The notes: generated by a model not told the origin, from the sequence alone. Positions 41,097-61,593 are shown, numbered from the stretch's first letter. The stretch: DNA of 64,000 nt from Thermoplasmatota archaeon (GCA_048569615.1 JBLIRK010000005.1:2036-66035), one strand, 5' to 3'. Made by a program: numbers and translations.

Positions 41097-41896
41097 TTTT
41101 TCGCTTCGCCTCCGTGCTTTTCAAGATACTCGGCGGCAAGGATCGCCGCCCCTGTGGCTGTAACTATCTGAGGGTTCTCTGGAACGTGCATCTTCCTTCC
41201 CAGCTCCTTCTCCATCGCATGCACCATGCCTATGTTCTTCGCGGGCCCCCCGTCGAAGAATATCACATCCCTTATCCCAACCTTCTTGGCCATGGCTACA
41301 AGCCTTCTAGCCACGGCCTTGTGTATGCCCATGATTATATCCTCCTTGGGATGGCCCTGGAAGATGAGGTTCGCAACCTCGGACTTGGCGAATACCAGGC
41401 ATGTGGTTGTTATGTCCACAGGGTCCCTGCTGGTGAGCGAGATCGGACCGAGGTCGTCGAGGGGAACCTCAAGCACCTTTGCAAGCACCTCCAGGAACCT
41501 TCCCGTCCCGGCCGCGCACTTGTCGTTCATGGCGAAGTTGATCATCTGCAGGTCGTCGTCCAGTGCTATGACCTTTGTGTCCTGGCCCCCGATATCTATT
41601 ATGGTCCGGACATTCAGTTCGGAGCCCAGCCACTGGACCCCTCTTGCATTAGCAGAGATCTCGCTGATGTTGTGTTCAGCGAGGGAGGTCACCCTCCGAC
41701 CGTAACCTGTGGACATGATCATCTCGATCTCCTCCCTCCTGACACCAGCCATTGCCATGGCCTCGTCAAGGACCTTCCTCGATGTGATGTCGTGGTCGTG
41801 GCCTGTGGGAGCGACGCCGTGCCCAATCCTCTTCCCGTCCATGACTATGGCGGATTTCACGTAGGTGGATCCCAGGTCCACTCCGGCGGTCATCAT
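41093..41896 (-). CDS. HgdC/BcrA/BcrD-type ATPase (CoA-substrate-specific enzyme activase), copy B. ORF 41093..42382 is trimmed to Met at 41896.
   Basis: MMTAGVDLGSTYVKSAIV is the ASKHA phosphate-1 motif. NDKCAAGTGRF and TTTCLVFAKSE preserve the two Cys that bridge the [4Fe-4S] cluster in HgdC. TGATG overlap with the upstream gene. The 162 upstream codons of the ORF are Arg/Gly-rich low complexity overlapping the neighbour, so they are read-through. Confidence 0.85.
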   Translation of the reverse strand: MMTAGVDLGSTYVKSAIVMDGKRIGHGVAPTGHDHDITSRKVLDEAMAMAGVRREEIEMIMSTGYGRRVTSLAEHNISEISANARGVQWLGSELNVRTIIDIGGQDTKVIALDDDLQMINFAMNDKCAAGTGRFLEVLAKVLEVPLDDLGPISLTSRDPVDITTTCLVFAKSEVANLIFQGHPKEDIIMGIHKAVARRLVAMAKKVGIRDVIFFDGGPAKNIGMVHAMEKELGRKMHVPENPQIVTATGAAILAAEYLEKHGGEAKK

Positions 41897-42783
41897 CACT
41901 TCCACCTCAGCAGTCTGTCCAGCAGTTTTGTTCTCTCCACCTTCACTTCTCCCTTGTCGTTCTCCCTCAATTTCAACGGTGAGCTCCGGGGTCTGGGAGC
42001 CGATAAAGCAGCCCCCAGGGCCCCTACTAAATGCGGCTCCTCGGGCACCATCATCTCCCTGTTTATGTCCTTCCTTATTTCCTCCACCACTCCCTTGTTC
42101 CTGGCGACACCCCCGCAGATCATGACCTTCCCCTTGCTCTGCGTCGAATTCACCAGGGCGATAATCTTCCTTGCCACCATCTGGTGGAGGCCCGCAAGTA
42201 TGTCGTCGGTCCTCTTTCCCTTGGCGATCAAGGACACGACCTCCGATTCCGCGAACACCGTGCAGGTGGCGTTCACGTGCTCCGCCAGCTTCGAGTGCAG
42301 GGATCGCTCGCCGACGTCGCCGATCTCCATCTCCAGGGCCATCGCCAAGGTGTCCATGAAGCAGCCTGTCCCCGTGGAGCACTTGTCGTTGGTCCTGAAA
42401 TCCGAAATGATCCCCATATCTCCCATCCTCATGGCCCTTACTCCGTGCCCCCCAATGTCAACGACGATCTCAACGTCCGGAACTAGAAAGAACGCGCCCT
42501 TGGCGAAGGAGGTGATATCCGTACGGGCCATGTCGGCGAAATCCAGGGACCTCCTGCCCTGACCGGTCGCCACGATGTAGCCGATATCGTTTCTCTTCAA
42601 TCCTTTCTGTTCGAGGAGCTGCTCCATGAGCCCCGAGGCGAGCTTTCCGGGCTCCATGGTGGTGTTTCCCAATACCGAACCCGCCACCTCCTTCCCGTTC
42701 TCAAGGAGGAGCACTTTGGTGGAGATCGCGCCGACATCTATGCCCAGGTCGTAGGGCTTCCCGGAAATAATTTCCCCGCTCAT
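41896..42783 (-). CDS. HgdC/BcrA/BcrD-type ATPase (activase), copy A
   Basis: YDLGIDVGAISTKVLLL, NDKCSTGTGCF and VNATCTVFAESEV. ATGA overlap with the upstream HgdB-like gene. Confidence 0.85.
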   Translation of the reverse strand: MSGEIISGKPYDLGIDVGAISTKVLLLENGKEVAGSVLGNTTMEPGKLASGLMEQLLEQKGLKRNDIGYIVATGQGRRSLDFADMARTDITSFAKGAFFLVPDVEIVVDIGGHGVRAMRMGDMGIISDFRTNDKCSTGTGCFMDTLAMALEMEIGDVGERSLHSKLAEHVNATCTVFAESEVVSLIAKGKRTDDILAGLHQMVARKIIALVNSTQSKGKVMICGGVARNKGVVEEIRKDINREMMVPEEPHLVGALGAALSAPRPRSSPLKLRENDKGEVKVERTKLLDRLLRWK

Positions 42784-44099
42784 CTGCCTGCCTCTTTGAA
42801 CTCCCTTCTAGCCTTGATCATCTCGACGAAGGCCTCCACCCTCGTCCTTACCTGCTCTATGTCGCCTTCGTCGTATTCGGATTCCAGCTTCACCATTGGG
42901 ATGCCCATCTCCCTGAGCTCCAGCTCGATCTTCGTCGCTTCCAGATTGTTCAGGTGGCACCCCCTCAATGTATGGAACACGACCCCCTCGATGCCGTAGG
43001 CCTTGATGGAGGTCTTGAGCCTCCTTAGCCTGTCCTCGTTGGGGCTGAAACATGGACAGGTACACGGAAAGAAATACCTCTCCGCTATTGCCTGAAGCAT
43101 CTCCTTCATGGTCCATCCCTCCAGCATCACGGGATCGGACATCAGCCTGAAACCGGTGCAAAGCTCGTCCGTCACGATGGTCCCGCCGGATTCCTCTATG
43201 ACGGTGGGGATCTTGAAGTTGGGGTACATCATGGGAGAGCCCGCAAGGAGTATCCTGGCCGCGCCCTCCTCCCCCGCCTGTATCGCCTTATCCTGCATCC
43301 CGTTCAGTTCGGATAAGAGCTCCCTTACCTTCTTGTTCCATCTGTCTATCCGGTCTATCTGGGAAGCCTGGACCACGAGCATGGCATCCCTGCCGGAGAT
43401 GGGGGGCTTATCTTTCCTTCGGATCTCCAGGAGCTTTGTCCAGAGCTCATTGGACTCGTTCCATTTCTCCACTTCCCTTCTGAGCTTCCGTTTGGTTATC
43501 TTATTCCCTGTTAGCTCCTCCAGCCTCTTCTTCAGATAGACTATCTCCGATACCCATAGCTTCGATGAGGTCTCCCCGATCTTGACCCTGGGTATGTTCA
43601 TCATAACAACGGGGACGAAATCCTCCAGGATCTCGGCCAGCTTCATCTTGCCGTCGCAGGTCGCGGGTCCCGCGACCATGTCCACCAGGTCCGCCACCGG
43701 ATTGGAGGAAACCATCTTCGTTCCCAGGGTGGCCTTTACCATGGGGCACAATCCCGCATCCCCCAGGAGCTCGTTGGCCGGATGGACAGGCTCGTAATAA
43801 CCGGAGCACAACCTAAGCCCCTGGGCGCCTGCGGCGCTTATCAGCTCGTAGGGGACCATCACGCATAACGTGCCGACGACCTTCCCTCCCTTCTCCCTGA
43901 ACTCCTTGAGCTCCAGGTACCTTACGCCTCCGTAGCGGTGAACCTCGTCGAAGTAGTTCATGGCCTTTGCCCTGTTCTTCTGGGCCTTCAGGTTCTTCCG
44001 GGAGGCCTCCTCCATCTGCTCGGACCTCTTCCTGGTCCTCGTCCGCTGCTCCTCCGAGAAGTATCCTTCCTTGTCCTTGAGGTACCTGCTGGGCATCAT
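42780..44099 (-). CDS. 2-hydroxyacyl-CoA dehydratase / benzoyl-CoA reductase D-component-like protein (HgdB/BcrC/BadD family). The ORF track extends to 44240, but the start is at the Met overlapping the upstream stop.
   Basis: Family-typical length of about 440 aa. N-terminal LKEFREKGGKVVGTLCVMVPYELI. Cys-containing blocks LCPMVKATLG, ELCTGFR and FPCTCPCFSPNED. C-terminal GIEGVVFHTLRGCH. ATGA overlaps on both sides. Confidence 0.6.
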   Translation of the reverse strand: MMPSRYLKDKEGYFSEEQRTRTRKRSEQMEEASRKNLKAQKNRAKAMNYFDEVHRYGGVRYLELKEFREKGGKVVGTLCVMVPYELISAAGAQGLRLCSGYYEPVHPANELLGDAGLCPMVKATLGTKMVSSNPVADLVDMVAGPATCDGKMKLAEILEDFVPVVMMNIPRVKIGETSSKLWVSEIVYLKKRLEELTGNKITKRKLRREVEKWNESNELWTKLLEIRRKDKPPISGRDAMLVVQASQIDRIDRWNKKVRELLSELNGMQDKAIQAGEEGAARILLAGSPMMYPNFKIPTVIEESGGTIVTDELCTGFRLMSDPVMLEGWTMKEMLQAIAERYFFPCTCPCFSPNEDRLRRLKTSIKAYGIEGVVFHTLRGCHLNNLEATKIELELREMGIPMVKLESEYDEGDIEQVRTRVEAFVEMIKARREFKEAGR

Positions 44100-45088
44100 C
44101 CTCCTCCTTTTCTGCTCGTATCCTTCTTCTTCTTGTTGATGAGGCCGAGAGCGGTCCTCTTCGGCCTCTTCGAGCTCACGATCCCGAAGGGACCATACAT
44201 CAGGGACAGGCAGTCCTTCTCGGGGCAGAGCTCCACGCATCTGCCGCAGAGTGTGCAGTCCTCCCCGGCGACATCGTCCTTCTCCATGTCCTCGTACACC
44301 TTATCGTGGTCCAGGGGGCAGACCCTGAGGCAGACGCGGCATCTTGTGCATTTCTCCGGGTCCTTCTTCAGCCAGGCAAGGGACGCACCGCTCAGAAGCG
44401 CCATCGCCCCGCCCATGGGGCAGATGCGGCAGAATGCCATCTTGATGAAGAAGGACGCCACCAGGAACAGCACCAGAATGACCAGTGCAAGGACGGGAAG
44501 CGTCGTCGTCCACGGCTCCAGACCGAATATCTGCTGGGTGACCGTAAAGAAACCCTTTGCGGGACAGACCTGACAGAAGGGGAGCGCCAGCGTTGACTGG
44601 CAGCCCATGATACCAAGGGCGGATATGCCGATGGGAATCGAAAGAAGGATCGTAAGGAAGATTATCACGTACTTGATCCGCCGGAGAACGACCCTGTGGC
44701 TCCATCTCAGCTTGTATGCGGGGATACCTGTCCTCTCCCGGAGCCACCCCATGAACTCCTGGACCATCCCGAAGGGGCAGAGCCAGGAGCACCAGAGCCT
44801 TCCCAGAAGGATGATCAGTATCAGGACCACCATGACCATGATCAGCACGTCAACGTAGCTGTTGTAGTAGCCCTGTGTGAGCCCGTCCTGGAGCTGATAA
44901 TAGAAGCAGGATGTCGGTGTGGTGTTGATATACCTGCAGGAGGCGTTGGGAAGGAATATCCTGCGGAGAAGGGGATATGTTCCAAAAGGGGGGAGACCGA
45001 GGAGCTGGCTTAGAATGAAACCCAGGGCAAGCCCCTGGACCGCGAACCTCCAAGGCCTGATCCTTGTCCCCTTGAACTCCCCCTTCAC
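44096..45088 (-). CDS. NapH/MauN-like membrane polyferredoxin: TM helices, a CSWLCPFG motif and two C-terminal 4Fe-4S ferredoxin motifs. The start is uncertain; GTG 45088 is proposed.
   Basis: LWCSWLCPFGMVQEF is the NapH/FixG-type motif. CQVCPAKG, CRICPMG, CTRCRVCLRVCP and CTLCGRCVELCP are present. The first 105 codons of ORF 44096..45403 are Arg/Gly-rich and overlap the upstream gene, so they are rejected. GTG at 45088 abuts the upstream stop (GTGA). Confidence 0.65.
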   Translation of the reverse strand: MKGEFKGTRIRPWRFAVQGLALGFILSQLLGLPPFGTYPLLRRIFLPNASCRYINTTPTSCFYYQLQDGLTQGYYNSYVDVLIMVMVVLILIILLGRLWCSWLCPFGMVQEFMGWLRERTGIPAYKLRWSHRVVLRRIKYVIIFLTILLSIPIGISALGIMGCQSTLALPFCQVCPAKGFFTVTQQIFGLEPWTTTLPVLALVILVLFLVASFFIKMAFCRICPMGGAMALLSGASLAWLKKDPEKCTRCRVCLRVCPLDHDKVYEDMEKDDVAGEDCTLCGRCVELCPEKDCLSLMYGPFGIVSSKRPKRTALGLINKKKKDTSRKGGG

Positions 45089-46380
45089 CCCCGTGCCCTC
45101 CTTTTCCTGATATGGTGTATCCAGAGCCTTGAAAGGACGGCAAGCTGGGCGATGAGGACAGCCACCAGCGCAAGCTGTACCACCTTCATCCACTGGACCA
45201 GGTCGTCGATCTCGCCGAGCACCGCCTCCGTCCTCTTGGTCTTTCCGTCGATAATATATACGTGGGGGGTGACGTAGCCCGATGTGTAATCGCCTTTGCC
45301 TATGTATCCGCCCTGTCCGGCGATTATCTCCATTTCCCCGTCCCTGTCCGGATCGGCGATCACGACACCCAGCACATCCCTTCCGAGCTCCCCGGAGGTC
45401 CATTCCAGGACCCTTGTCTCGGCATCGTAGACCCTGATGTAACCCGCCATGTTCGAAACGACGATCTCCAACGTCCCGTCGTCATCGACGTCCCCGATAT
45501 CGAGCCCGTAGGCCTTCGGGCCGATGTTCCCGCTCTTCCATACCTGGACGAAGTCATTGCCGTCGTAGGTGAAGATGAAGCACCATCCGTCCCTGTACCT
45601 GTACCCGTTTGAAACCACCATCTCCAGGACTCCGTCGCCGTCGAGGTCCACGACCTTCAAACCTTCAACACATCCTCCGAGATCGGGGCTCTTCCATTTC
45701 AGATCCCCAGTTTCCAGGTCGAATATCCTGATGTAGCCCTCTCCCCGGATATCTCCGAGCGACACTCCGGATGTGACGATCAGCTCCTCCTTCCCGTCCT
45801 GGTCAAGGTCGGCGATATCGATCTCCCTCAGCCTCGAATCGAAGGGCTCGAGCTCCCTGTAGGGATCGGATGAATTGTGCTCGAAGAAGTAGACCTGCCC
45901 CCATCCCTGGTCCGTCTTGAAACCCGACCCTACGATGAGCTCGTTCTCGCCGTCCCCGTCGACATCATGGAGGAGCAGGCCGTGGGCATCCCTGACTAGA
46001 GTCACTGATTCCCATTCGATCTCCTTCGTCCGTCCGTCCAGTGCCCTGACGTTCCCGTCACCGTCCCCGATGATGATCTCCATGGAATCGTCATTGTCGA
46101 ACTGGCCGGCCCTGAGGCCCCAGCACCGGGTCCCGAACCTGGGTGAGGTCCAGTCAACGGAGTAATCACCCCCGGCATATTCGACGGAGGTCACGTATCC
46201 GTCGTAAGAGCCGAAAAGTATCTCGTCCCTTCCGTCTCCGTCAACATCCTCGCATATGATGGACTGGAACCTTCCGATGCCGGAGGTGAGCTCCCTGGGC
46301 TCCACCACGGCTGATGCGGGCTGAAAGAATATCATCATCATCAGCAGGATGCAAAGGAAGTGAGGGAACCGCCCCTTCAT
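45085..46380 (-). CDS. FG-GAP/VCBS beta-propeller protein with signal peptide and C-terminal TM anchor. ORF 45085..46581 is trimmed to Met 46380.
   Basis: MKGRFPHFLCILLMMMIFFQPASA is a signal peptide. Blades EDVDGDGRDEILFGS, HDVDGDGENELIVGS, ADLDQDGKEELIVTS, VDLDGDGVLEMVVSN, GDVDDDGTLEIVVSN and ADPDRDGEMEIIAG. C-terminal LALVAVLIAQLAVL then RKRRARG. The trimmed start gives an ATGA overlap with the upstream stop. Confidence 0.7.
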   Translation of the reverse strand: MKGRFPHFLCILLMMMIFFQPASAVVEPRELTSGIGRFQSIICEDVDGDGRDEILFGSYDGYVTSVEYAGGDYSVDWTSPRFGTRCWGLRAGQFDNDDSMEIIIGDGDGNVRALDGRTKEIEWESVTLVRDAHGLLLHDVDGDGENELIVGSGFKTDQGWGQVYFFEHNSSDPYRELEPFDSRLREIDIADLDQDGKEELIVTSGVSLGDIRGEGYIRIFDLETGDLKWKSPDLGGCVEGLKVVDLDGDGVLEMVVSNGYRYRDGWCFIFTYDGNDFVQVWKSGNIGPKAYGLDIGDVDDDGTLEIVVSNMAGYIRVYDAETRVLEWTSGELGRDVLGVVIADPDRDGEMEIIAGQGGYIGKGDYTSGYVTPHVYIIDGKTKRTEAVLGEIDDLVQWMKVVQLALVAVLIAQLAVLSRLWIHHIRKRRARG

Positions 46381-47573
46381 CCCCTGGACCTCCGGATCTC
46401 CCTGTATGCGGGATAGAAGAATGCGACCAAGGCAGCTGCCCCGATAATGATGAGGGATACGGCGGTGATGGTCCCGATGGGAAGTCCGTCCCCCTCTCCC
46501 GCTTCGCCGCCGAATCCGTAGAGTATGACGGTATGGCTCTTTCCCAGTCCAGAGGCCAGGAACCTGCCGTCCGGGGACCACCTTGACATCATCACCATGG
46601 CATGCTGCTCCATACCGTCCTTGATCACTTTCAGTTCGGTACCGGTCACGGAATCCCTTATCTTCAGAGTGAGGTCAACACCGGAGGTGGCAGCTATCTC
46701 CTGAAAGGGGTGGAAATCGACGGACCTGACGCAGTTGTTGTCGGACCATGTGGCGAGGATCTCGCCGGTGGATGAGTTCCAGACCTTGATCTTGTAATCC
46801 CTGGAGCCGGTGATGAGCCTTGAATCATCCGGAGACCAGTCGATGTCCAGAACACCTGTGGTATGCCCGGTCGCGTTCATCACCTCGGTCCTTGTGGAGA
46901 ACTCCATGATCCTTATCATCCTGTCATCGGATGCGGATGCGAGCCTGTCACCCTCGTTCGACCATCTCACTGCGAGCACTCCATCCCTGTGCCAGTTGAG
47001 GGTGTGGTAGAGCCTGCCTGTCTGCATGTCCCATATGCGGACAGCGTTCTCCTCCTGGTTCTGCGGGATGACCTTGTCCCTCCCCGAGCCGGACGCCAAG
47101 TATCTGCTGTCAGGGGAGAAATCGAGGCAGAGGATGGAGCCGGAGTGCCCCCTCAGCATGTACTTCTCCTCCCAGGTCGCCGTATCGAACACGGTTATAA
47201 TGCGGTCGTCCCCGCCCACAGCCAGGAGCTTTCCGTCGGGGGAGAAGCAGCAGGCGCGGAGCGGATTCGTCCCCTCGGGGGAGAACCCGTCGCATCTCGT
47301 ATCCTCCGGGACGAGGTCGAGCACGGTCCTGATCCCACCGTCAGTGGCGTTCAGAACCACGCATTTATCGTCGAAGAACGTGGCGGCGATCATCGATCCG
47401 TCGGGGGACCACGACAGCTTCCAGAATGTCGCCTCGCTGTCCTCCTTGGTGTACATCCAGATGACCTCCGCCCTTGCCGGATCTATTTCCGCTACCTGGG
47501 CTGCTGCGGGATTCAAGGGCAGAAGGAGGATGAGCAGTCCGAATGCTGTCGCCGGAATGACGGCTATTTTCAT
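46377..47573 (-). CDS. WD40-repeat beta-propeller protein with signal peptide and C-terminal TM anchor
   Basis: LRGHSGSILCLDFSPDSRYLASGS, VRIWDMQTGRLYHTLNWHRDGVLAVRWS and TGHTTGVLDIDWSPDDSRLITGSRDYKIKVWN. N-terminal MKIAVIPATAFGLLILLLPLNPAAAQ. C-terminal AVSLIIIGAAALVAFF then REIRRSRG. Confidence 0.8.
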   Translation of the reverse strand: MKIAVIPATAFGLLILLLPLNPAAAQVAEIDPARAEVIWMYTKEDSEATFWKLSWSPDGSMIAATFFDDKCVVLNATDGGIRTVLDLVPEDTRCDGFSPEGTNPLRACCFSPDGKLLAVGGDDRIITVFDTATWEEKYMLRGHSGSILCLDFSPDSRYLASGSGRDKVIPQNQEENAVRIWDMQTGRLYHTLNWHRDGVLAVRWSNEGDRLASASDDRMIRIMEFSTRTEVMNATGHTTGVLDIDWSPDDSRLITGSRDYKIKVWNSSTGEILATWSDNNCVRSVDFHPFQEIAATSGVDLTLKIRDSVTGTELKVIKDGMEQHAMVMMSRWSPDGRFLASGLGKSHTVILYGFGGEAGEGDGLPIGTITAVSLIIIGAAALVAFFYPAYREIRRSRG

Positions 47574-49231
47574 GTAAGCACCTCCCTCTCCTCGTTCCGG
47601 TTCCTCAAGTAAACAACTAAGGTGACGAATCCGGTTAGCAAGTTCAGGCCGGCGATCACCGCTATTATGATACCGTTGCTCAAGCGACCGCTTTTATCGA
47701 CTGTTGACGAAGCTGTTTCGTCATCTGCCTCCTCCCCGGGCTCCACGATTACATTGGCGGAGGCCGTTCCCGGCTCCAACCCTTCCTTCACGACTTCCAA
47801 TTCGATATTGACCGTCGACCTCGAGCTGACCCTGATGGGGAAGTAGAATACCTCGACCTCCCCCTCCTCGTTGGTCAAGTATTTCAACCTCGTATTGCCA
47901 TCCTTGTCAAAGGCAATGTACCCAGCGGAAATGGAGAAGGTGACCTCAGCTCCCTCGACGGGGGAGCCCTCGTTATCGGTCACCCTTACGATCATGGATG
48001 TGGAATTGTCGGAGGTTATCTCCTTATCCGTTGTGTTGATGGCCGCAGACAGACCGGGCGGGCGGACCCCAACGCAGTAAACGGACCGGTCCGAGGAGCC
48101 GAAATATACCCTTTCCAGGTAGATGACGGGTGATGAATAGACATAACCCCCGGTCGAGAAGGTCCATACCAGGTCCCCGTTGGTCTCGTTGAAGCAGTAG
48201 AGGTTGTAGTCGTCGGAGCCGATGAACAATTTCCCATCCGAGACCACGGGGGACGAGCCCCCCTGGAAATCATGGGTGGGGGAGGACCAGATCACCTCGT
48301 CTTCGGAGATGTTGCCGTCCGAATCAGGGTCATCGATCGGAAGGCACCATGTGTACTCGAAGGACCCGAAGAATACCCTGTCATCTCTGACGATCGGTGT
48401 GGAATAGGTATCGTGGCCAGTGAAGAAGGACCATTTAATATCCATGGTATCCGGGTCCACATTGTAGATCCTCTGGTCCATCCCTGCGGTCAGCAGCAGA
48501 TTATCATCATGGAGCACTCCGGAGGAATACACCTCGGCATACTCCCCGAACTCCACCTTGTCCAGTACCTCTCCGTCGTCCAGCGATAGCCTGTAGAGGC
48601 TCCTTCCGGTGTCCCCGATGAAGAGCACCCCCCTTTCCTCGTCTACGATCCCCGAGGCCCAAATGGGAAGGTCGGATATCGGAGACCTCCAGATCTCCTG
48701 TCCCTCCTTAGATAATCTGTACACGATCCCGGCCAGGTCCGAGAAGATGACCGAATCCCCGAAGGCGTGGGCCGAGGATTTGATCTCTCCCTCGGTCTCG
48801 AAGGACCAGAGGGTCTCAGGTTCGGAGGTCGATCCCTCCGGTGGAAGCGAGATGCAGTAGAAATTGCGGTCAAGTGATCCGAAATATCCCCTGCCATTCT
48901 CCAGAAGGACCGTTGCTTGTACATCGTCCCCCGACTTGAACTTCCAGTTCATACTCCCGGTCACGGGGTCCAGGCAGTAGACCCAGTCGTCCTCCGAGCC
49001 AATGACCAGACCGCCTGGGTAGAAAGTGGGAGAGGAGAGAACCTGACTCCCGGTGTCGAAGGACCATATCAATTCGCCCTTCTCAGGAGCATCCCCGTCT
49101 TCAAGGGCCAGGTGCAGGGGGTCCCCCCTCCACTGGCTCCATGCGCCCTCTGAGGGATCCGAACCCGTGAAGGATATAAAGAGGAGGAGAACTAGGATGG
49201 CCGCCGCTGTGATCTTGGAAATAGAGCTCAT
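47570..49231 (-). CDS. PQQ-like (BamB/YxaL-type) beta-propeller repeat protein with a C-terminal Ig-like domain and TM anchor
   Basis: Repeats of the type (W/Y)(S/K)F.TG..(V/I).SSP. and the linker GDLVWTFSTGGYVYSSPVIY. Signal peptide MSSISKITAAAILVLLLFISF. C-terminal IIIAVIAGLNLLTGFVTLVVYL then RNRNEE. Confidence 0.7.
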   Translation of the reverse strand: MSSISKITAAAILVLLLFISFTGSDPSEGAWSQWRGDPLHLALEDGDAPEKGELIWSFDTGSQVLSSPTFYPGGLVIGSEDDWVYCLDPVTGSMNWKFKSGDDVQATVLLENGRGYFGSLDRNFYCISLPPEGSTSEPETLWSFETEGEIKSSAHAFGDSVIFSDLAGIVYRLSKEGQEIWRSPISDLPIWASGIVDEERGVLFIGDTGRSLYRLSLDDGEVLDKVEFGEYAEVYSSGVLHDDNLLLTAGMDQRIYNVDPDTMDIKWSFFTGHDTYSTPIVRDDRVFFGSFEYTWCLPIDDPDSDGNISEDEVIWSSPTHDFQGGSSPVVSDGKLFIGSDDYNLYCFNETNGDLVWTFSTGGYVYSSPVIYLERVYFGSSDRSVYCVGVRPPGLSAAINTTDKEITSDNSTSMIVRVTDNEGSPVEGAEVTFSISAGYIAFDKDGNTRLKYLTNEEGEVEVFYFPIRVSSRSTVNIELEVVKEGLEPGTASANVIVEPGEEADDETASSTVDKSGRLSNGIIIAVIAGLNLLTGFVTLVVYLRNRNEEREVLT

Positions 49232-49339
49232 CCCAACGGTTATTTCAGACCCTCCCGAACGATCGCCATTTGCCAGGCTCTCCGGAACATTGCGGGTCTG
49301 CGGTTATAATAGTTATGGGGGGCTCCCCGAATCTGTAAC

Positions 49340-50626
49340 CTATCCCTTTCTTATCCTCCTGTATCTCTTCCAGAATACGGCGAGGATGACACCGATGATG
49401 ATCGCGACTGCAAGGGCGAGGAAGAGCATATCCCTGTTTGCGCTCACCTCCCGCCCGATATCGAATGCGTCGTCCCCATCATCATCATCGGTAACCGGAA
49501 TGTTCTGCCTGAGGCATCTTACATACCCGTTCCTGTCCCCGAAGAAGACCTTGGAGCCGTATGCCGACGGGGAGACCTCGCTGGCATCCCCGTATTCGAA
49601 GCTCCGGTAGATGCTTCCGTTCCCCATATGGACCATGACCAGCCCCTGTTCACAGGTCGCATATACGAGCTTCCCGCCTATTACGGGGGATGTCTCAAGC
49701 TGGGAAGGACCGAGGTCAAGGGTCCATTCTATCGAACCATATTCTGCATCCAGGCAGTAGAGGAGCCCGTCATTGGCCCCGACCATAACCTTCTCGGCGT
49801 TTACGGCAGGTGAGGATTGGATGTCGCCTCCCAGGGCGGTGCTCCAGATGAGCTCCCCGTCCCCGGCGTCAAGGCAGTACATGTTGCTGTCGTAGGAGCC
49901 GAAATATATCCTTCCTTCCATGATCGCGGGTGAGGATGGAATGTAAGCAGCGGAGAAGTTCCATTTATGCTCCCCGGTCAATGCATCCAGACATCTCAGC
50001 ATCCCGTCGCAGGAACCGAAATATAGGTTGTTGTCATGGACGGCAGGGGTTGTGTGTATCCATCCCTGGCATCCGATGTAATCCCAAGAGGGGGTCCCAT
50101 CCGGTTTCAGGCTGTAGAACTTAGAATCATAGGATCCGAAATAGATCATGTCGCCGGGTCCGTTGGGGGAGGAAATGATCTCCTTCCCCGATCCCGTATC
50201 AAAGGTCCATAGCTGCGCTCCTTCTTCCATGGAGAGCGCCGTCACCATACCAGAACTGTCGCACACTGCGAGATCGTTCGTTTCCTCGATATACAGGGGT
50301 GTCGAGAATATAGGTGCTCCGACGTTGTAGCTCCATTCCAGGCTCCCGAACTCCGAATTCAGCTTGTAAACCGTCCCGTTGGAGGTGCCGAACACGCACC
50401 AGCCTTCCTCAGCGATGACTGCGGTGCCGATGGATGAATCCGCCCGGAACTCCCAGGACAGGAAGACCTCTCCCTTCAACGGATCTGAAAGGTCGGTGGT
50501 GGTTCTTCCCGTATTCGACGGATCTCCCCTGAAGCTGTTCCAGCCTAGCGCAGCGGGACCCGCAACCATCAATATCGACAGGAGAATCGAAAGGATCGCC
50601 CCTGTCCTTCCAGGGGAGCACTTCAT
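49340..50626 (-). CDS. Second PQQ-like beta-propeller repeat protein with signal peptide and C-terminal TM anchor; the ORF could extend to 50698
   Basis: MKCSPGRTGAILSILLSILMVAGPAALG is a signal peptide. Repeats LEWSYNVGAPIFSTPLY, QLWTFDTGSGKEIISSP, HKWNFSAAYIPSSPAI and LIWSTALGGDIQSSPAV. C-terminal LALAVAIIIGVILAVFW then KRYRRIRKG. Confidence 0.7.
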   Translation of the reverse strand: MKCSPGRTGAILSILLSILMVAGPAALGWNSFRGDPSNTGRTTTDLSDPLKGEVFLSWEFRADSSIGTAVIAEEGWCVFGTSNGTVYKLNSEFGSLEWSYNVGAPIFSTPLYIEETNDLAVCDSSGMVTALSMEEGAQLWTFDTGSGKEIISSPNGPGDMIYFGSYDSKFYSLKPDGTPSWDYIGCQGWIHTTPAVHDNNLYFGSCDGMLRCLDALTGEHKWNFSAAYIPSSPAIMEGRIYFGSYDSNMYCLDAGDGELIWSTALGGDIQSSPAVNAEKVMVGANDGLLYCLDAEYGSIEWTLDLGPSQLETSPVIGGKLVYATCEQGLVMVHMGNGSIYRSFEYGDASEVSPSAYGSKVFFGDRNGYVRCLRQNIPVTDDDDGDDAFDIGREVSANRDMLFLALAVAIIIGVILAVFWKRYRRIRKG

Positions 50627-50678
50627 GGAGATAGAACCAGTTCGACTGGGATTAAAAGCTTGCGCTCTCATAAGTTCG

Positions 50679-53600
50679 TCACCTTCTGAATACCGCATCG
50701 TATCCCTTCACCGCCCACATCGAGGAGGCGATGCCTATTACGAGGGAGGCCAGAAGAAAACCTCCGGGGATCAGGATTATGGGTGCCGCCATATCGGGGG
50801 TCAGGAAGGCAGAATCGGACATGGTGAAAAAGACGAGTGCTCCCGCCGCCGATCCCGCAATCGCACCTAGCAGAGCGATCATGAAGACCGCCAGGTTCTC
50901 CAGCAGGAAATACATGACGGATCTTCCTTTGGGGGCCCCTATTGTCCTCAGCAGGGAGATCTCCTTTCTCATGTCCACGGCCCTCGCATGGGTGAAAACA
51001 ACAGCCGAGGCGAGGGAGAGTATCACGCCCAGCAAGAGGAAGTCCCGGAACAGGTAAAGGTACGAGAGCTCGTACCTGGCATTTTCCAGGGCAAGGTCCC
51101 TGACCGGCGTTATCAGGGGAGAGAAATCCTCGAAGATCCCCTCAACGGCTTCCTTGCCCCCTCCGTTCGCCCTGACTAGGAAATAATCCGGTGCGGCCGT
51201 GGAGGGGAAGAGGTCCTTCAGAAAGGTAGAAGAGAGAACGAAGCTCCCGGTGAACACGGAGGACTCCAGGACACCCACGACAACAAGGGTCACCCTCTCT
51301 CCGTTCTCGGTGTCCAGCTTGAACTCCGAACCCAGCTTCTCGTAGTATATCCATGCAAGTGTGTTCTGATCCACGAGGATGGGTATCCTTCCGTCGATCT
51401 TCGAATGGAGCATCTCCCAAGCTTCCTTATCGCTTCCCATGCCCTTTCTTCTCTCCATAAGCCCGAAGCCCGATACGTTCGAGAAGCCCTCCCGGACACC
51501 AAGGAGCCTGGGAGGATAGACGGCATTGACGTTGGAGCAGGTCCCCCCCTCCGAGCCGACGGAGAGCAAGGATTCAACATCCATTGCTCCGGACCGCAGC
51601 TCTCCCCTGAAGGGAACCGGGAGCTCCACCACGTAATCGAATCCGCCCCCGTAATCGCCTATCCCATCCTCCGCATCCGCTTCTAGCATGGCACCGATAA
51701 CGGTCAGTGAGAGTGAAATGGTGAGAGCCATGGCAAGGATGGAGATGGTAAGCGGATGCTTCCTCGGCCTTCTCGTGATATTGGCGCTCACAATGAGAAG
51801 CAGATCGCTTCTTCTGGACACCCTTGACGCAATAAGGTAGATAAGGAGAGCGGTCCCGGCTGAAAACACGATGGAGCCCAGTGTGAACAATAGTCCCTTC
51901 GCATAGATATCATCGGAACCGGAGCCAGACACAAGCAGGGCAATACCAATTATGATGGATGCCCCCGAAGCTCCGAAGTGGAGAAGCCTGCCTCTCATTG
52001 TCGGGCTTCCCACGGAGATGTCCTCTTCCCTCAGGTTGACCGCGGGAACACTGCCGGTCTCCCTCCAGACCGCAATGAGGGACAGGACCATGGATGAGAT
52101 CACTCCGATCGATATCGAGATGAGGACAGTGCCTGCCGAGACCGAGAAGGGGACGGAGGAGTTCTCAACGGAATCAGACCAGGCCGAGGAGAGCCCCGCG
52201 TTCAGGACGAAGGAGAATACGAATCCCACCGGCAGTCCGATAAGGCTTCCCGCCACGATGCTCCAGGCGGATTCGACCAAGGCCGCCTGGAACAGCCCTC
52301 TCCTTCCGGCCCCTATCGAGCGGAGTATCCCCCACTCATGTGACCGTCTAGCCGCCATATCCTTGATCACGGCATACAGCGTAAGGAGGGCACCGGCGAT
52401 CATTACCGTTCCGAATGAAAGGAACATTCCCGGAAAGATGAGCATGGCGCGGGATGATTCCAGAGCCCTTTCCCGGACGGGGACCAGGCTGATACCCATC
52501 GAAGAGTGGTCAAGCCCGTCCCCAATATTATCTAATTCTCCTTGGACATCCTCTCCCCGGACCAAGAGAGCGTTTGAATCACCGTAGCTTCCCGCCCACA
52601 TCTCCCTTGCGTCCTCCAGGCTCACGAAGCATTTTGGGGTTGTCCTGTAAATGTCCCAGTATTCGAGGTCTGCCTCCCCGAGAGAATCGAGGTCTAGGTC
52701 GAATGATGGATCCCACTCGTTGCAGGACGGGGCATCAGTCACCCCCTCGATCGGGGGCAGGAATCCCGGCTCCATACCGATTCCGGTCATGTTGTAGACG
52801 GCGGCGACCCTGAACGTCCTTTCCTCCTCCCGCAGCTCCCCGAGGAGGGTCACCTTCCTGTAGGAGACCACGATATCATCACCGATGGAAAGCCCCATCC
52901 TTTCGGCGGTCCAGTTGTTGACCGCTATTTCGCCGGTTCCCGGCAGGGGGCCGGATCCTTGAGGTCCAATCATCTCGAGCTCCTCCATCAGACCGGGCCG
53001 GACCCCGGAGACAACGGAATACGAGAGCTCCCCGTTCCCGGATGCCAGTGAATCAACGAAATACGAGAGCGAGAGCCCTTCATTCCCTTCTTCCGTCAGG
53101 TCCGTCTCGTCGAAGAACAGGCCGTCGCTGTAGATGAAGGAGCCTCCGCTGGATAGGGATCCCACCACCCTGAAGCCCGCCTCATCTAGACCCACGGCGT
53201 CGTCAAGAAGGGACATTATGGAATCCATGATCTTTCCCGAGCCGCCGTCCGATACGGTATCTATCAGTACCGTGTTCACCTTCCCGACGATCCCCAGCCT
53301 CTCCTGAACGAGTCCGATATCGACCACCAGGATCGGCTCCACCTTTGCGAGGGAATCCGTCCTGAACCTTCCGATACCCCGGTTCTCGATCACAGCCTCC
53401 ACCGTAAGGTTCAGGGTGATCCTGTCGGACCTGTCAAAACCGAGAAGGCTCTCCTCCCTGGTGGAAAAGGAGGGTACCGATATCCTGATGCCTCCGCCGC
53501 TGCCCTCTTCCAATTTCTTCGAGAGCTCCCTGTTGACGTAGCACCCGTACCTCGGTGGAGCACCCAAGTTATCGGATGATTCCGCCTCTACGGCACCCAG

Positions 53601-54086: not shown

Positions 54087-54254
54087 TTTGGGGAAATGGC
54101 GGTAAGCAGGATGTATTATTCAGTAATCATGAACTGCTGGCCATTGAAAGCACCCCTTTCCAAGAGATTCAACGAAGAGTGTAGGAACTCTTGAAAATCG
54201 TTATATATAAGTGATGATTACAACGGCAATCCGCCCCTGAGCCTTTCGCCGGAA
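54087..54254. promoter_or_regulatory. Divergent intergenic/promoter region between the permease cluster (-) and the acd-etfBA operon (+)
   Basis: 168-nt non-coding gap with TATA-like TTATATATAAG about 40-60 nt upstream of the + strand start. Confidence 0.3.
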
Positions 54255-54293
54255 GTGAAATGTTCATTTTGGGGTGAAGAGAGCCGTGGGACC

Positions 54294-61518: not shown

Positions 61519-61593
61519 ATTAACAGCTCCGAAACCAACCTGAGTCCAATATCTTGGTGTATTATTAATCGTTTTAGGTAACGCCCAGTATGG

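What the first reader, a model, noticed from the sequence alone, without database searches (positions are those of the whole stretch)
45085..50626. Four consecutive membrane-anchored beta-propellers of three different repeat families sharing one architecture
The FG-GAP, WD40 and two PQQ-like propeller proteins each have an N-terminal signal peptide, a single propeller, a C-terminal hydrophobic helix and a short Arg/Lys tail. That is a type-I membrane topology. Different folds with the same anchoring logic in one operon suggest a multi-propeller ectodomain assembly. Elsewhere in the window, the Kelch, SBBP and two giant FG-GAP proteins repeat the theme, giving at least 8 propeller ectodomain proteins in 64 kb.
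Basis: seen in the sequence. Interest (0 to 1): 0.55.

Follow-up and report, generated by a model that had tools for sequence, protein, structure and literature searches.

The report
Conserved archaeal membrane-anchored propeller operon
Four neighbouring genes of an uncultured Thermoplasmatota archaeon encode cell-surface beta-propeller proteins held in the membrane by a C-terminal helix, and they are the middle of a ten-gene operon, kept in about 35 related species, that also encodes a giant FtsX-type permease, a NapH-like membrane iron-sulfur protein and an ATP-driven double-cubane-cluster reductase whose natural role is unknown.

Summary
Window 45085-50626 (minus strand) encodes PQQ-like, PQQ-like plus Ig, WD40 and FG-GAP propeller proteins. 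Each has an N-terminal signal-like hydrophobic region, one C-terminal TM helix and a short basic tail. No known sorting-signal model matches.

The four genes sit in a 13.5 kb operon (40524-54086): FtsX-type duplicated permease, PQQ1, PQQ2, WD40, FG-GAP, NapH-like polyferredoxin, DCCP-like HGD-D protein, two BcrAD ATPases and a small exported protein. Eight junctions are 4-nt start/stop overlaps.

Anchored on FG-GAP, gene order is kept across Thermoplasmatota MAGs: WD40 36/36, PQQ2 32/33, NapH 34/35, HGD-D 31/32, FtsX 22/26.

The anchors look functional. PQQ2 has a mid-membrane Asn/Asp in 33/33 orthologs. FG-GAP has Gln/Glu/Asn near the cytoplasmic end. The two co-vary (N with Q/N, D with E, no mixed state in 29 genomes), which argues for helix-helix contact.

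In bacteria, out-group NapH-like genes sit beside HGD-D or DsbD_2 genes downstream of TonB-dependent receptors. This suggests capture plus reductive processing, but the function remains inferred.

C-terminal anchoring itself is the general style of this lineage's surface proteins.

The parts
50679..54086 (-). AI: 1135-aa duplicated FtsX-type permease. About 11-12 hydrophobic segments and two large extracytoplasmic domains (about res 90-546 and 804-1006). First gene of the operon. No ABC ATPase gene next to it.
   Evidence: Pfam FtsX 56.8 bits, two stretches. NCBIfam ADOP/LolC hits lie far below cut-off. Hydropathy. No PDB sequence relative. Upstream of the propellers in 22/26 loci.
49340..50626 (-). 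AH (PQQ1): 428-aa PQQ-like propeller with signal-like N-terminus, acidic linker, TM helix and tail KRYRRIRKG. Accessory member of the cluster.
   Evidence: PQQ_2 113 bits and Beta-prop_ACSF4 171 bits. BamB model 140.9 vs cut-off 285. Present at this position in 16/31 loci. 26-27% identical to AG.
49370..49429 (-). AH C-terminal TM helix (res 400-419, MLFLALAVAIIIGVILAVFW). No conserved polar residue.
   Evidence: polar residue in core in 3/18 orthologs.
47570..49231 (-). AG (PQQ2): 553-aa PQQ-like propeller plus Ig-like stalk, TM helix and tail RNRNEEREVLT. Core member.
   Evidence: PQQ_2 93 bits, Beta-prop_ACSF4 163 bits, Big_1 27 bits. 32/33 loci.
47606..47674 (-). AG TM helix (res 520-542) with mid-membrane Asn530.
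   Evidence: Asn/Asp at this depth in 33/33 orthologs. Column 530 is one of only 2 PQQ2 columns that split the N and D groups.
46377..47573 (-). AF: 398-aa WD40 propeller (28 strands, read as seven blades), 12-residue linker, TM helix and tail REIRRSRG. ATGA overlap with AG and with AE. Core member.
   Evidence: WD40 157.5 bits. AF2 pLDDT 88.8, pTM 0.81. Foldseek hits are generic WD40 scaffolds such as 5yzv and WDR5. 36/36 loci. More than 100 full-length orthologs.
46404..46478 (-). AF TM helix (res 366-390), ending in a conserved [YIL]P motif 3-4 residues before an (I)RRRR-type tail.
45085..46380 (-). AE: 431-aa FG-GAP/VCBS propeller (read as seven blades) with conserved DxDxDG-type acidic loops. 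It joins its TM helix directly, with no stalk. Tail RLWIHHIRKRRARG. Core member.
   Evidence: FG-GAP_3 80 bits. AF2 pLDDT 90.0, pTM 0.85. Foldseek hits are BBS7/ITFG2/BBS9-type scaffold propellers. 114 positions conserved at >=90%, 26 of them Asp.
45130..45183 (-). AE TM helix core (res 400-417) with Gln412 six residues from the cytoplasmic end.
   Evidence: Gln/Glu/Asn at 4-6 residues from the end in about 31/34 orthologs. Co-varies with PQQ2 residue 530.
44096..45088 (-). AD: 330-aa NapH-like integral-membrane polyferredoxin (Fer4_5, two CxxCxxCxxxCP motifs, CSWLCP). Its GTG start overlaps the AE stop (GTGA).
   Evidence: Fer4_5 64 bits. NapH model 94 vs cut-off 234. Motifs. Junction. 34/35 loci.
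42780..44099 (-). AC: 439-aa HGD-D family protein, a full-length homolog of the double-cubane cluster protein DCCP. ATGA overlap with AD.
   Evidence: HGD-D 323 bits. PDB 6ENO/7YYL E about 1e-72 over residues 40-429, with all DCCP Cys aligned. Cys spacing. 31/32 loci.
41896..42783 (-). AB: BcrAD/BadFG-family ATPase (DCCP-reductase/'archerase' type), first of two.
   Evidence: BcrAD_BadFG 158 bits. ATGA overlap.
41093..41899 (-). AA: second BcrAD/BadFG-family ATPase.
   Evidence: BcrAD_BadFG 166.5 bits. The pair is present in 18/27 loci.
40524..41096 (-). Z: 190-aa exported or lipoprotein-like protein (MNRIPILFAGAAVILFICGC...). No family match. ATGA overlap with AA. Last gene of the operon.
   Evidence: no Pfam. 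Homologs at the same place in L003, L007, L008 and L010, and about 2 kb further downstream in L006.
54087..54254 (.). Divergent intergenic region between the operon and the acyl-CoA dehydrogenase/EtfB/EtfA genes. It contains AT-rich TATA-like elements at about 54111-54120 and 54201-54210.
   Evidence: Sequence read. Promoter function not tested.
12652..17332 (+). Satellite unit J (FG-GAP+PKD, 980 aa), K (Kelch propeller, 423 aa) and L (157-aa Cys-rich polytopic membrane protein). Homologs adjoin the cluster in other genomes.
   Evidence: Pfam. L homologs lie beside the cluster in L005, L010, L015, L026 and L043. Kelch follows the BcrAD genes in L043.

Best explanation
The four genes encode Sec-exported beta-propeller proteins that stay in the cytoplasmic membrane through a C-terminal TM helix (type I, propeller outside, basic tail inside). 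They are made from one translationally coupled operon.

Together they form the extracytoplasmic part of a conserved Thermoplasmatota envelope system. Its invariant core is PQQ2 + WD40 + FG-GAP + a NapH-like membrane polyferredoxin + a DCCP-like reductase. An FtsX-type duplicated permease is usually present upstream, and two BcrAD ATPases usually downstream.

The propellers look like non-catalytic scaffolds. At least PQQ2 and FG-GAP probably pack against each other in the membrane through polar residues in their TM helices, so the set is a hetero-oligomeric platform rather than four independent proteins.

Most likely mode of action (inferred, about 0.3): the platform, with the large ectodomains of the FtsX permease, captures or positions an external substrate, possibly a metal ion or chelate. 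The NapH-like protein then handles that substrate reductively with low-potential electrons from the ATP-driven DCCP system.

Shown: architecture, domain identity, operon structure, synteny, TM conservation and covariation. Inferred: physical complex, direction of electron flow, substrate.
For: - Domains and topology.
- Operon structure: ATGA/GTGA overlaps at AG|AF, AF|AE, AE|AD, AD|AC, AC|AB, AB|AA and AA|Z. The same overlaps appear in gene calls of L003, L005 and L043.
- Synteny anchored on FG-GAP in Thermoplasmatota MAGs with different flanks: WD40 36/36, PQQ2 32/33, NapH 34/35, HGD-D 31/32, FtsX 22/26, down to 41% FG-GAP identity.
- Ectodomains are strongly conserved (FG-GAP 64%, WD40 58% mean identity to the window residue). 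Their folds match scaffold propellers, not enzymes.
- TM helices: Asn/Asp mid-helix in 33/33 PQQ2 orthologs and Gln/Glu/Asn in about 31/34 FG-GAP orthologs. Internal controls are 3/18 (PQQ1) and 2/37 (WD40).
- Covariation: N with Q/N and D with E or none, with no mixed state in 29 genomes. There are at least two coordinated switches on an NJ tree. Only 7 of about 4,400 operon columns partition the same groups.
- AC is a full-length DCCP homolog with the Cys ligands aligned. The physiological role of DCCP is unknown (PMC7317905).
- Out-group NapH-like genes (30-36% id) in bacteria sit in TonB-dependent receptor - unknown periplasmic protein - NapH-like - DsbD_2 - ExbB - ExbD - TonB operons (L045, L046), or TBDR - unknown - NapH-like - HGD-D (L044).
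- The distant archaeal clade inserts a 6-TM protein with two TM Cys and a His/Lys/Cys-rich loop between FG-GAP and NapH.
Against: - No experiment or expression data exists; all members come from uncultured MAGs.
- Conserved order within one phylum could partly reflect inheritance.
- Operon membership does not prove shared function. A NapH-like/HGD-D pair also exists without the propellers (L047), and DCCP/DCCP-R form a stand-alone two-gene unit in Firmicutes (PMC7306483).
- The propellers carry no conserved redox or metal site beyond FG-GAP acidic loops and a few Cys. No CxxCH motif occurs.
- No ABC ATPase for the FtsX permease lies in any locus.
- The covariation rests on a few evolutionary events, an unsupported NJ tree and my own TM boundary calls.
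- The two polar residues sit at somewhat different distances from the cytoplasmic boundary (about 9-13 vs 4-6 residues).
- The metal idea leans on sub-threshold DUF4198 matches (E 0.008-0.035), on three bacterial contexts, and on the CcoG precedent recalled from memory.
Confidence: 0.6

Rival explanations
1. The FtsX permease and the propellers form an envelope module (mechanotransmission, surface maintenance or adhesion). It has nothing functionally to do with the NapH-like/DCCP/BcrAD genes, which only share the transcript and belong with the divergent acyl-CoA dehydrogenase/ETF genes.
For: - ACAD lies divergently upstream in the window and in several loci (L003, L009, L014, L020; about 34% identical copies in L028, L029, L032); EtfB/EtfA were seen only in the window and L003.
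- The NapH-like/HGD-D pair occurs without propellers in L047 and in bacteria.
- DCCP/DCCP-R are self-sufficient in Firmicutes.
- The propellers look like scaffolds with no redox site.
Against: - The FG-GAP stop and the NapH start overlap (GTGA in the window, ATGA-type in L005 and L043).
- NapH-like and HGD-D follow FG-GAP in 34/35 and 31/32 loci, even where FtsX, PQQ1 or the BcrAD genes are lost or moved.
- In bacteria the same NapH-like subfamily is again attached to an envelope uptake machine.
Confidence: 0.2
2. Four ordinary, independent surface (glyco)proteins of a wall-less archaeon that happen to be neighbours. The shared architecture is only the lineage's standard way of anchoring exported proteins.
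For: - At least six other window proteins (J, K, M, X, AM, AN), including non-propeller ones, use a signal peptide plus a C-terminal TM.
- Surface proteins are very dense in this window.
Against: - Order and orientation are kept in about 35 species at 41-76% identity, with unrelated flanks.
- 4-nt overlaps.
- Conserved and co-varying polar residues inside the TM helices, absent from PQQ1, WD40 and the other anchors.
Confidence: 0.1
3. The PQQ-like propellers are true periplasmic-type quinoprotein dehydrogenases. They oxidise an external substrate and pass electrons to the NapH-like protein.
For: - PQQ-family repeats are present.
- Weak hits to PQQ dehydrogenase models.
- A NapH-type protein is a plausible membrane electron acceptor.
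Against: - Scores of 55.9 and 21.6 bits against a cut-off of 480 for TIGR03075. The PF01011 match covers one blade only.
- The best family matches are BamB/ACSF4-type non-catalytic propellers.
- PQQ ectodomains are the least conserved parts (40-47%).
- No PQQ biosynthesis genes in the window.
- It leaves the ATP-driven DCCP unexplained.
Confidence: 0.05
4. The C-terminal helices are cleavable sorting signals (archaeosortase/PGF-CTERM-like or a new type). The mature proteins would then be lipid-anchored or released, not type-I membrane proteins.
For: The tripartite shape (linker, hydrophobic helix, basic tail) superficially resembles sortase-type signals.
Against: - No PGF, PEP, VPxxxP or GlyGly motif precedes the helix in any of about 120 ortholog C-termini.
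- No sorting-signal model hit at E<=1.
- Conserved features lie inside the helix and on its cytoplasmic side (YP...IRRRR, RLWxxHIRNRR). These would be discarded by cleavage.
- The helices co-vary between proteins.
- The FG-GAP helix continues directly from the last blade.
Confidence: 0.03

Closest known systems
Integrin alpha subunits (eukaryotic type-I FG-GAP propeller receptors; from general knowledge)
   Same: Signal peptide, seven-bladed FG-GAP propeller with acidic Ca-type loops, one C-terminal TM helix and a short basic cytoplasmic tail. They function only as a heteromer whose TM helices pack together.
   Different: AE has no thigh/calf legs; the propeller sits directly on the helix. There is no vWA/beta-subunit partner. 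The partners here are PQQ-like and WD40 propellers. No homology beyond the repeat family.
BamB/YfgL (PQQ-like propeller lipoprotein of the bacterial BAM complex)
   Same: Closest named model for AH and AG (TIGR03300). A PQQ-repeat propeller without cofactor, tethered to a membrane on the extracytoplasmic side, acting as a scaffold in a multi-protein machine.
   Different: Scores of 140.9 and 69 lie below the 285 cut-off. The anchor is a C-terminal TM helix rather than an N-terminal lipid. The host is an archaeon with no BAM or outer-membrane barrel proteins in evidence.
DCCP / DCCP-R (double-cubane [8Fe-9S] cluster protein and its ATP-dependent reductase; PDB 6ENO, 7YYL; PMC7317905, PMC9351452)
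   Same: AC aligns over its full length (E about 1e-72) with the cluster Cys conserved. BcrAD-type ATPase genes follow it.
   Different: There are two ATPase genes rather than one. The system is embedded in an operon with a membrane polyferredoxin and surface proteins, whereas the described bacterial systems are soluble two-gene units. The first Cys spacing is X18, against the published X19.
NapH / NosR / MauN / CcoG family of Fer4_5 membrane iron-sulfur proteins
   Same: Fer4_5 domain, CX3CP-type motif, two ferredoxin-type clusters and about four TM helices. From general knowledge, members serve periplasmic propeller enzymes (NosZ, NirS, MADH) or reduce Cu(II) (CcoG).
   Different: Scores are far below the NapH/NosR cut-offs (94 vs 234; 56 vs 1000). 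There is no NapG/NapAB, no NosZ and no FMN-binding domain. The partners are cofactor-less propellers and DCCP.
Bacterial TonB-dependent receptor - NapH-like - DsbD_2/HGD-D - ExbBD - TonB loci (uncharacterised; found here in L044-L046)
   Same: They share the same NapH-like subfamily (30-36% id). It is directly coupled to HGD-D or a DsbD_2-type 6-TM protein, and sits behind an envelope capture or uptake machine.
   Different: The envelope part is a TBDR with ExbBD/TonB, not an FtsX permease with C-anchored propellers. The function of these loci is itself not established.
MacB / LolCDE / FtsEX type VII ABC systems
   Same: FtsX-fold permease with large extracytoplasmic domains. These systems act on substrates or partner proteins outside the membrane.
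   Different: The permease is duplicated (1135 aa). No ATPase gene is adjacent in any locus. There is no MacB periplasmic-domain or PDB sequence match.
PGF-CTERM / archaeosortase ArtA substrates
   Same: Archaeal surface proteins with a C-terminal hydrophobic helix plus a basic tail.
   Different: The defining PGF motif and the model match are absent. Conservation lies within and after the helix.

Membership tests
FG-GAP/VCBS beta-propeller (AE) | Repeated FG-GAP units above the Pfam gathering score, folding as a seven-bladed propeller with acidic loops | tested here: met
   PF13517 80 bits vs 26.9 and PF01839 48 vs 22.1. AF2 propeller (about 27 strands, read as seven blades), pLDDT 90. 26 conserved Asp.
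WD40 propeller (AF) | WD40 repeats above the gathering score and a seven-bladed fold | tested here: met
   PF00400 157.5 bits vs 27. AF2 pLDDT 88.8 with 28 strands. Foldseek target-normalised TM-score (TMt) about 0.9 to WD40 structures.
PQQ-like (BamB-type) propeller repeat (AG, AH) | PQQ_2 / Beta-prop_ACSF4 above the gathering score | tested here: met
   PF13360 93 and 113 bits vs 27.6. PF13570 163 and 171 bits vs 133.
PQQ-dependent dehydrogenase | Whole-protein match to the quinoprotein dehydrogenase models | tested here: not met
   TIGR03075 21.6 and 55.9 bits vs 480. TIGR03074 22.7 vs 833.
PQQ-dependent dehydrogenase | PQQ and metal ligand residues in the active site | not tested
   No structure-based alignment of AG/AH was made.
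BamB | Equivalog score | tested here: not met
   TIGR03300 69 and 140.9 bits vs 285.2.
BamB | N-terminal lipobox anchor | tested here: not met
   The N-termini have no lipobox Cys after the h-region. The anchor is a C-terminal TM helix.
Type-I single-pass membrane protein | Cleavable N-terminal signal peptide | tested here: inconclusive
   A hydrophobic N-terminus plus a small-residue c-region is present in all four and in their orthologs. No SignalP run and no experimental cleavage data.
Type-I single-pass membrane protein | Exactly one further TM helix near the C-terminus, with the positive side inside | tested here: met
   KD maxima of 2.25-3.16 over 19 residues. AF2 helices. Tails are net positive except AG. 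The same holds in about 120 orthologs.
PGF-CTERM / archaeosortase substrate | PGF (or related) motif immediately N-terminal of the helix, with a match to the sorting-domain model | tested here: not met
   No model hit at E<=1. No such motif in any ortholog C-terminus.
PGF-CTERM / archaeosortase substrate | Archaeosortase gene in the genome | not testable with these tools
   Only a 64-kb window is available. None is seen in it.
DCCP (double-cubane cluster protein), AC | Seven-Cys motif CX19CX18-19CX29CX166-170CX32-34CX32C | tested here: inconclusive
   Cys79, 98, 118, 148, 314, 348 and 381 align with the DCCP Cys. Spacings are 18/19/29/165/33/32: the first is X18 (published X19) and the fourth X165 (published X166-170), so the strict regex fails and a loose one matches. 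Motif taken from PMC7317905.
DCCP (double-cubane cluster protein), AC | Full-length homology to DCCP rather than to dehydratase/BCR subunits | tested here: met
   6ENO/7YYL E about 1e-72, against 1e-20 to 1e-22 for HadC-type 3O3M_B and BzdN.
DCCP (double-cubane cluster protein), AC | Adjacent ATP-dependent reductase of the BcrAD/archerase family | tested here: met
   Two BcrAD_BadFG genes directly downstream. The pair is present in 18/27 loci.
DCCP (double-cubane cluster protein), AC | [8Fe-9S] cluster and ATP-dependent reduction activity | not testable with these tools
   Needs biochemistry.
NapH quinol dehydrogenase subunit (AD) | Equivalog score and Nap partners (NapG, NapAB) | tested here: not met
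   NF007013 94.4 vs 234 and TIGR02163 90 vs 213. No Nap genes in the window or loci.
Fer4_5 membrane polyferredoxin superfamily (AD) | Fer4_5 domain, TM helices and two 4Fe-4S ferredoxin motifs | tested here: met
   PF12801 64 bits vs 22. CSWLCP and two CxxCxxCxxxCP motifs. Hydrophobic segments.
MacB/FtsX type VII ABC transporter (AI) | FtsX permease domain(s) | tested here: met
   PF02687 56.8 bits vs 25.5, two stretches.
MacB/FtsX type VII ABC transporter (AI) | Cognate ABC ATPase (fused or adjacent) | tested here: not met
   No ABC_tran gene is fused or adjacent in the window or in L003, L005 or L043. A gene elsewhere in the genome cannot be excluded.

The most novel reading that the evidence does not exclude
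The operon encodes a previously undescribed archaeal envelope machine. A hetero-oligomer of three or four C-terminally anchored propellers (packed through complementary polar residues in their TM helices) and a giant ATPase-less FtsX permease captures an external substrate. A NapH-like membrane ferredoxin, powered by the ATP-driven double-cubane-cluster reductase, then reduces that substrate. This would give DCCP its first physiological context and define an archaeal functional counterpart of TonB-dependent reductive uptake.
Probability: 0.25. Interest if true: 0.8.

Novelty: new variant of a known kind. Interest (0 to 1): 0.55.

Why it matters
Each protein on its own is an ordinary repeat-family surface protein, and C-terminal TM anchoring is routine in archaea. 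Three things are not routine.

- Three different propeller families are kept as a fixed, translationally coupled set across a phylum. Their TM helices are conserved and co-vary, giving a sequence-level signature of a heteromeric single-pass receptor-like complex in archaea.
- This set is welded to a NapH-type membrane ferredoxin and a DCCP-type ATP-driven reductase. DCCP has a nitrogenase-like cofactor but no known physiological function (PMC7317905). A conserved membrane or extracellular context gives a concrete handle on that open question.
- The parallel with bacterial TonB-receptor/NapH-like/DsbD_2 loci points to a shared but uncharacterised reductive capture or uptake logic that can now be tested in tractable bacteria.

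The organisms are uncultured sediment and spring Thermoplasmatota whose cell surfaces are essentially unknown.

Tried and rejected
- Exact look-up of the window WD40 protein found nothing, although an identical NCBI protein exists (P0001).
I rebuilt it from database hits (A3).
- PDB sequence search for the FtsX permease gave no hit.
- Pfam at E<=1 found nothing for Z (40524-41096), L (16859-17332) or the 206-257-aa membrane protein of the distant clade. Its CcdA/DsbD_2-like reading therefore rests on topology, two TM Cys (..C.. in TM1, RGATPC) and the DsbD_2 gene at the equivalent place in bacteria.
- Heme CxxCH motifs are absent from all operon proteins. This rejects a cytochrome-based extracellular electron conduit.
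- N-glycosylation sequon density of the four propellers (0.2-0.75 per 100 aa) is not clearly above cytoplasmic proteins (mean 0.31). It is uninformative for topology.
- Literature searches (DCCP, Thermoplasmatota with propeller terms, EX4484-6, DUF4198) found no description of this cluster. The library is incomplete, so this is not proof of novelty.
- A search for other columns tracking the N/Q versus D/E split found none in FtsX, NapH, WD40 or PQQ1. No third TM partner could be named.
- I considered a shared tail sorting motif. Tails of AE, AF and AH share an IR[KR]xR(G) flavour, but this cannot be distinguished from the positive-inside rule.
- Bacterial promoter and terminator scans were not used because the host is an archaeon.

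Full report
WHAT IS THERE

The window comes from an uncultured Thermoplasmatota archaeon. The WD40, FG-GAP and NapH-like proteins are 100% identical to NCBI MAG proteins on a 77-kb contig (P0001, P0121, P0241).

On the minus strand, 45085-50626 holds four genes:
- AH, 49340-50626, 428 aa
- AG, 47570-49231, 553 aa
- AF, 46377-47573, 398 aa
- AE, 45085-46380, 431 aa

The mechanical ORF for AE runs up to 46581. The real start is the ATG at 46380, which overlaps the AF stop and matches the ortholog lengths.

Pfam confirms three repeat families: FG-GAP_3/FG-GAP for AE, WD40 for AF, and PQQ_2/Beta-prop_ACSF4 for AG and AH. AG has an extra Ig-like stretch before its anchor. AG and AH are distant paralogs (26-27% identity).

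ARCHITECTURE

Hydropathy scans give each protein one N-terminal hydrophobic stretch with a small-residue c-region, and exactly one C-terminal TM segment followed by Arg/Lys.

AF2 models built on 44-45 orthologs are confident:
- WD40: pLDDT 88.8, pTM 0.81. N-terminal helix, 28 strands (residues 36-353, read as seven blades), a short low-confidence linker, then helix 366-395.
- FG-GAP: pLDDT 90.0, pTM 0.85. About 27 strands (residues 41-388, read as seven blades) running without a stalk into helix 393-430.

The same plan is present in essentially all orthologs I extracted. I could not run SignalP or DeepTMHMM, so cleavage of the signal peptide remains a prediction.

No NCBIfam sorting-signal model (PGF-CTERM and relatives) hits at E<=1. 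None of about 120 ortholog C-termini has a PGF/PEP-type motif ahead of the helix.

THE UNIT IS LARGER THAN FOUR GENES

Upstream lies a 1135-aa duplicated FtsX-type permease (AI, 50679-54086).

Downstream come, in order:
- a NapH-like Fer4_5 polyferredoxin (AD, 44096-45088)
- an HGD-D family protein (AC, 42780-44099)
- two BcrAD/BadFG ATPases (AB 41896-42783, AA 41093-41899)
- a 190-aa exported protein with no family (Z, 40524-41096)

Read directly from the sequence, AG|AF, AF|AE, AD|AC, AC|AB and AA|Z are ATGA overlaps. AE|AD is a GTGA overlap, and AB|AA is a GTGATG junction. Only AI-AH (52 nt) and AH-AG (108 nt) have gaps.

AC is a full-length homolog of the double-cubane cluster protein DCCP (PDB 6ENO/7YYL, E about 1e-72). 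All cluster cysteines are aligned. The published 7-Cys motif comes from PMC7317905; the first spacing here is X18, not X19. That review states that the physiological function of DCCPs is unknown.

CONSERVATION

Contexts of WD40 orthologs at 43-68% identity showed the same order in contigs with unrelated flanks.

A genome-collection scan seeded with an FG-GAP alignment returned 37 loci, all Thermoplasmatota MAGs. With tblastn assignment and only loci long enough to judge, the neighbours of FG-GAP are:
- WD40: 36/36
- PQQ2: 32/33
- FtsX: 22/26
- NapH-like: 34/35
- HGD-D: 31/32
- PQQ1 between FtsX and PQQ2: 16/31
- BcrAD pair: 18/27

So the invariant core is PQQ2-WD40-FG-GAP-NapH-like-HGD-D.

A more distant clade (FG-GAP 41-51% identical) differs in three ways:
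- It lacks PQQ1.
- It inserts a 206-257-aa six-TM protein between FG-GAP and NapH. That protein has a Cys in TM1, an RGATPC motif and a His/Lys/Cys-rich loop.
- It often has a giant PQQ+Ig protein after HGD-D.

In L043 a Kelch propeller and a homolog of window protein L follow the BcrAD genes. L homologs adjoin the cluster in five loci. The window's J/K/L unit (12652-17332) is therefore a recurrent satellite of the cluster.

THE ANCHORS ARE NOT GENERIC

Ectodomains are well conserved (FG-GAP 64%, WD40 58%, PQQ 40-47% mean identity to the window residue). N-termini and C-termini are not. Specific intramembrane features, however, are kept:
- PQQ2 has Asn or Asp in the middle of its helix in 33/33 orthologs.
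- FG-GAP has Gln/Glu/Asn 4-6 residues from the cytoplasmic end in about 31/34.
- WD40 has a [YIL]P motif just before an (I)RRRR tail.
- PQQ1 (3/18) and WD40 (2/37) lack core polar residues and serve as internal controls. The other C-terminal anchors visible (K, X, AM, J) also show no such residue in the sequence as read.

The PQQ2 and FG-GAP residues co-vary. In 29 genomes with both, N pairs with Q (13) or N/HN (8; two more carry the Asn at the helix boundary). D pairs with E (4) or with no polar residue (2). N/E or D/Q never occurs.

On an NJ tree of the FG-GAP ectodomain, the D/E genomes are interleaved with two separate N/Q subclades. This implies at least two coordinated switches (no branch support computed).

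Only 7 of about 4,400 aligned columns across nine operon proteins partition the same two groups. One of them is PQQ2 residue 530.

I read this as evidence for direct packing of the two helices. It is suggestive, not proof.

WHAT THE PROPELLERS LOOK LIKE FUNCTIONALLY

Foldseek places the WD40 model among generic WD40 interaction scaffolds. It places the FG-GAP model nearest BBS7, ITFG2 and BBS9, which are propellers of multi-propeller complexes. No enzyme is among the top matches.

PQQ dehydrogenase and BamB models score far below their cut-offs. No CxxCH motif occurs anywhere in the operon. Conserved residues are mostly Gly/Trp/Asp structural positions. Beyond those, FG-GAP has 26 conserved Asp in DxDxDG-type loops, WD40 has two invariant Cys and PQQ1 has three.

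A FUNCTIONAL LEAD FROM THE NapH-LIKE GENE

Its orthologs (>=39% identity) are all from this archaeal cluster. The next tier (30-36%) is bacterial. I examined four out-group contexts:
- L045 and L046: TonB-dependent receptor - 267/277-aa unknown - NapH-like - DsbD_2 - ExbB - ExbD - TonB.
- L044: TonB-dependent receptor - 322-aa unknown - NapH-like - HGD-D, with a start/stop overlap.
- L047: NapH-like - HGD-D with a DsbD_2 gene nearby and no propellers.

The unknown periplasmic proteins match DUF4198 only below threshold (E 0.008-0.035). One DUF4198 member is a periplasmic zinc-capture protein (PMC12663993, abstract).

The NapH-like/(HGD-D or DsbD_2) module is thus repeatedly attached to envelope capture or uptake machinery. 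In Thermoplasmatota that place is taken by the FtsX permease and the anchored propellers.

From memory, not tested here: CcoG, a Fer4_5 protein, is a cupric reductase; NosR, NirI and MauN serve periplasmic propeller enzymes.

MOST LIKELY MECHANISM

Shown: exported, C-terminally anchored propellers from three repeat families are encoded in one tightly coupled operon. That operon carries a NapH-like membrane ferredoxin and a DCCP-type reductase, and it is conserved across a phylum.

Inferred, with my estimates:
- The propellers form a heteromeric platform through their TM helices, and probably their ectodomains (about 0.6).
- The platform works with the FtsX ectodomains to capture or position an external substrate that the NapH-like/DCCP module processes reductively. 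A metal or metal chelate is the leading guess (about 0.3 for the first, about 0.15 for the metal).

Rivals are set out separately. The strongest is that the envelope half and the redox half share only a transcript. Supporting that rival, the ACAD gene lies divergently upstream in both clades (ETF genes seen in the window and L003) and might belong with NapH/DCCP.

COMPARISON AND NOVELTY

Each part belongs to a known family. It also fails the equivalog tests for the named functional families BamB, PQQ dehydrogenase and NapH; for MacB-type systems only the adjacent ATPase partner is missing. PGF-CTERM features are absent.

AE has the layout of a minimal integrin alpha chain. AC passes the DCCP tests that can be run in silico.

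I found no description of this operon in the searchable literature. That library is incomplete.

I file the finding as a new variant of known kinds: type-I anchored archaeal surface propellers, plus a NapH-like/DCCP module. There is a one-in-four chance that it is a new kind of envelope machine.

It mainly reflects the surface-protein style of this lineage. The J/K/L unit is the exception, being genuinely linked to the cluster in other genomes.

Noticed in passing
window 12652-17332 (+); L043 16169-17712; L015 13931-18390; L005 16656-21194: The FG-GAP+PKD giant (J), Kelch propeller (K) and 157-aa Cys-rich four-TM protein (L, no Pfam) form a unit. Homologs of L (and in L015/L043 a Kelch gene) lie directly beside the propeller/NapH/DCCP cluster in five other genomes. 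In this window the unit is about 23 kb away.
   Followed up: partly
L028 11380-12000; L004 12653-13426; L001 12606-13358; L043 11416-12180: In the distant clade, a 206-257-aa six-TM protein is inserted between FG-GAP and the NapH-like gene. It has a Cys in TM1, a conserved RGATPC(L)K motif and a His/Lys/Cys-rich loop. It has no Pfam match but resembles CcdA/DsbD_2/UreH-type proteins. The window's clade lacks it.
   Followed up: partly
L045 5062-11553; L046 5073-11388; L044 4784-10267: Bacterial operons of the form TonB-dependent receptor - unknown 267-322-aa protein (sub-threshold DUF4198) - NapH-like - DsbD_2 (or HGD-D) - ExbB - ExbD - TonB. This looks like an uncharacterised reductive uptake system, and it is tractable in cultured relatives.
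   Followed up: partly
window 40524-41096 (-): Z is a 190-aa protein with a signal peptide ending in ...FICGC (lipobox-like). It has no family match and is translationally coupled (ATGA) to the last BcrAD gene. Homologs (35-51% identical) lie at that position in L003, L007, L008 and L010, and about 2 kb further downstream in L006.
   Followed up: partly
window 54255-57940 (+): An acyl-CoA dehydrogenase (565 aa), EtfB, and EtfA with an N-terminal ferredoxin domain are divergently transcribed from the operon. An ACAD occupies the same divergent position in both the near and the distant clade (about 34% identity in the latter).
   Followed up: partly
window 49232-49339 (-): The 108-nt AH-AG gap holds a GGGGAGCCCC hairpin just after the AH stop and a TATTATAA element about 75 nt before the AG start. 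This may be an internal promoter for the core genes, and it fits PQQ1 being dispensable. Not tested.
   Followed up: no
window 3428-9744 (+): Two adjacent genes of about 1040-1080 aa: a PD-(D/E)XK nuclease protein and a UvrD-type helicase with a C-terminal PD-(D/E)XK domain. This is an AddAB-like helicase-nuclease pair, which is unusual for an archaeon.
   Followed up: no
window 12652-15594 (+) and 17339-21991 (-): After their single TM helix, J carries a 40-aa cytoplasmic zinc-ribbon-like tail (CPRCGW...CSRCGRFG). M (SBBP+fn3, 1550 aa) carries a 128-aa acidic Pro/Gln-rich tail. These surface proteins may signal to, or be held from, the cytoplasmic side.
   Followed up: no
window 27785-30145 (-); L003 18697-20947: A DUF4097 'toastrack' protein and a HAAS+Sensor membrane protein (with a PadR regulator in L003) lie downstream of the cluster in both the window and L003. 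This is a conserved anti-sigma-like sensing module of unknown relation to the operon.
   Followed up: no
P0030 / P0172 (database hits): WD40 and FG-GAP orthologs (about 61% identical) are labelled 'Candidatus Altiarchaeales archaeon WOR_SM1_79'. All other named hits are Thermoplasmatota, so this is probably a mis-binned contig rather than a second phylum.
   Followed up: no
window 57952-63942 (-): Two further large surface proteins use the same signal-peptide/C-terminal-TM plan but have no propeller: AM (transglutaminase core plus Ig domains, 1188 aa) and AN (Big_7, Pro-rich tail). This shows that the anchor is lineage-wide.
   Followed up: partly
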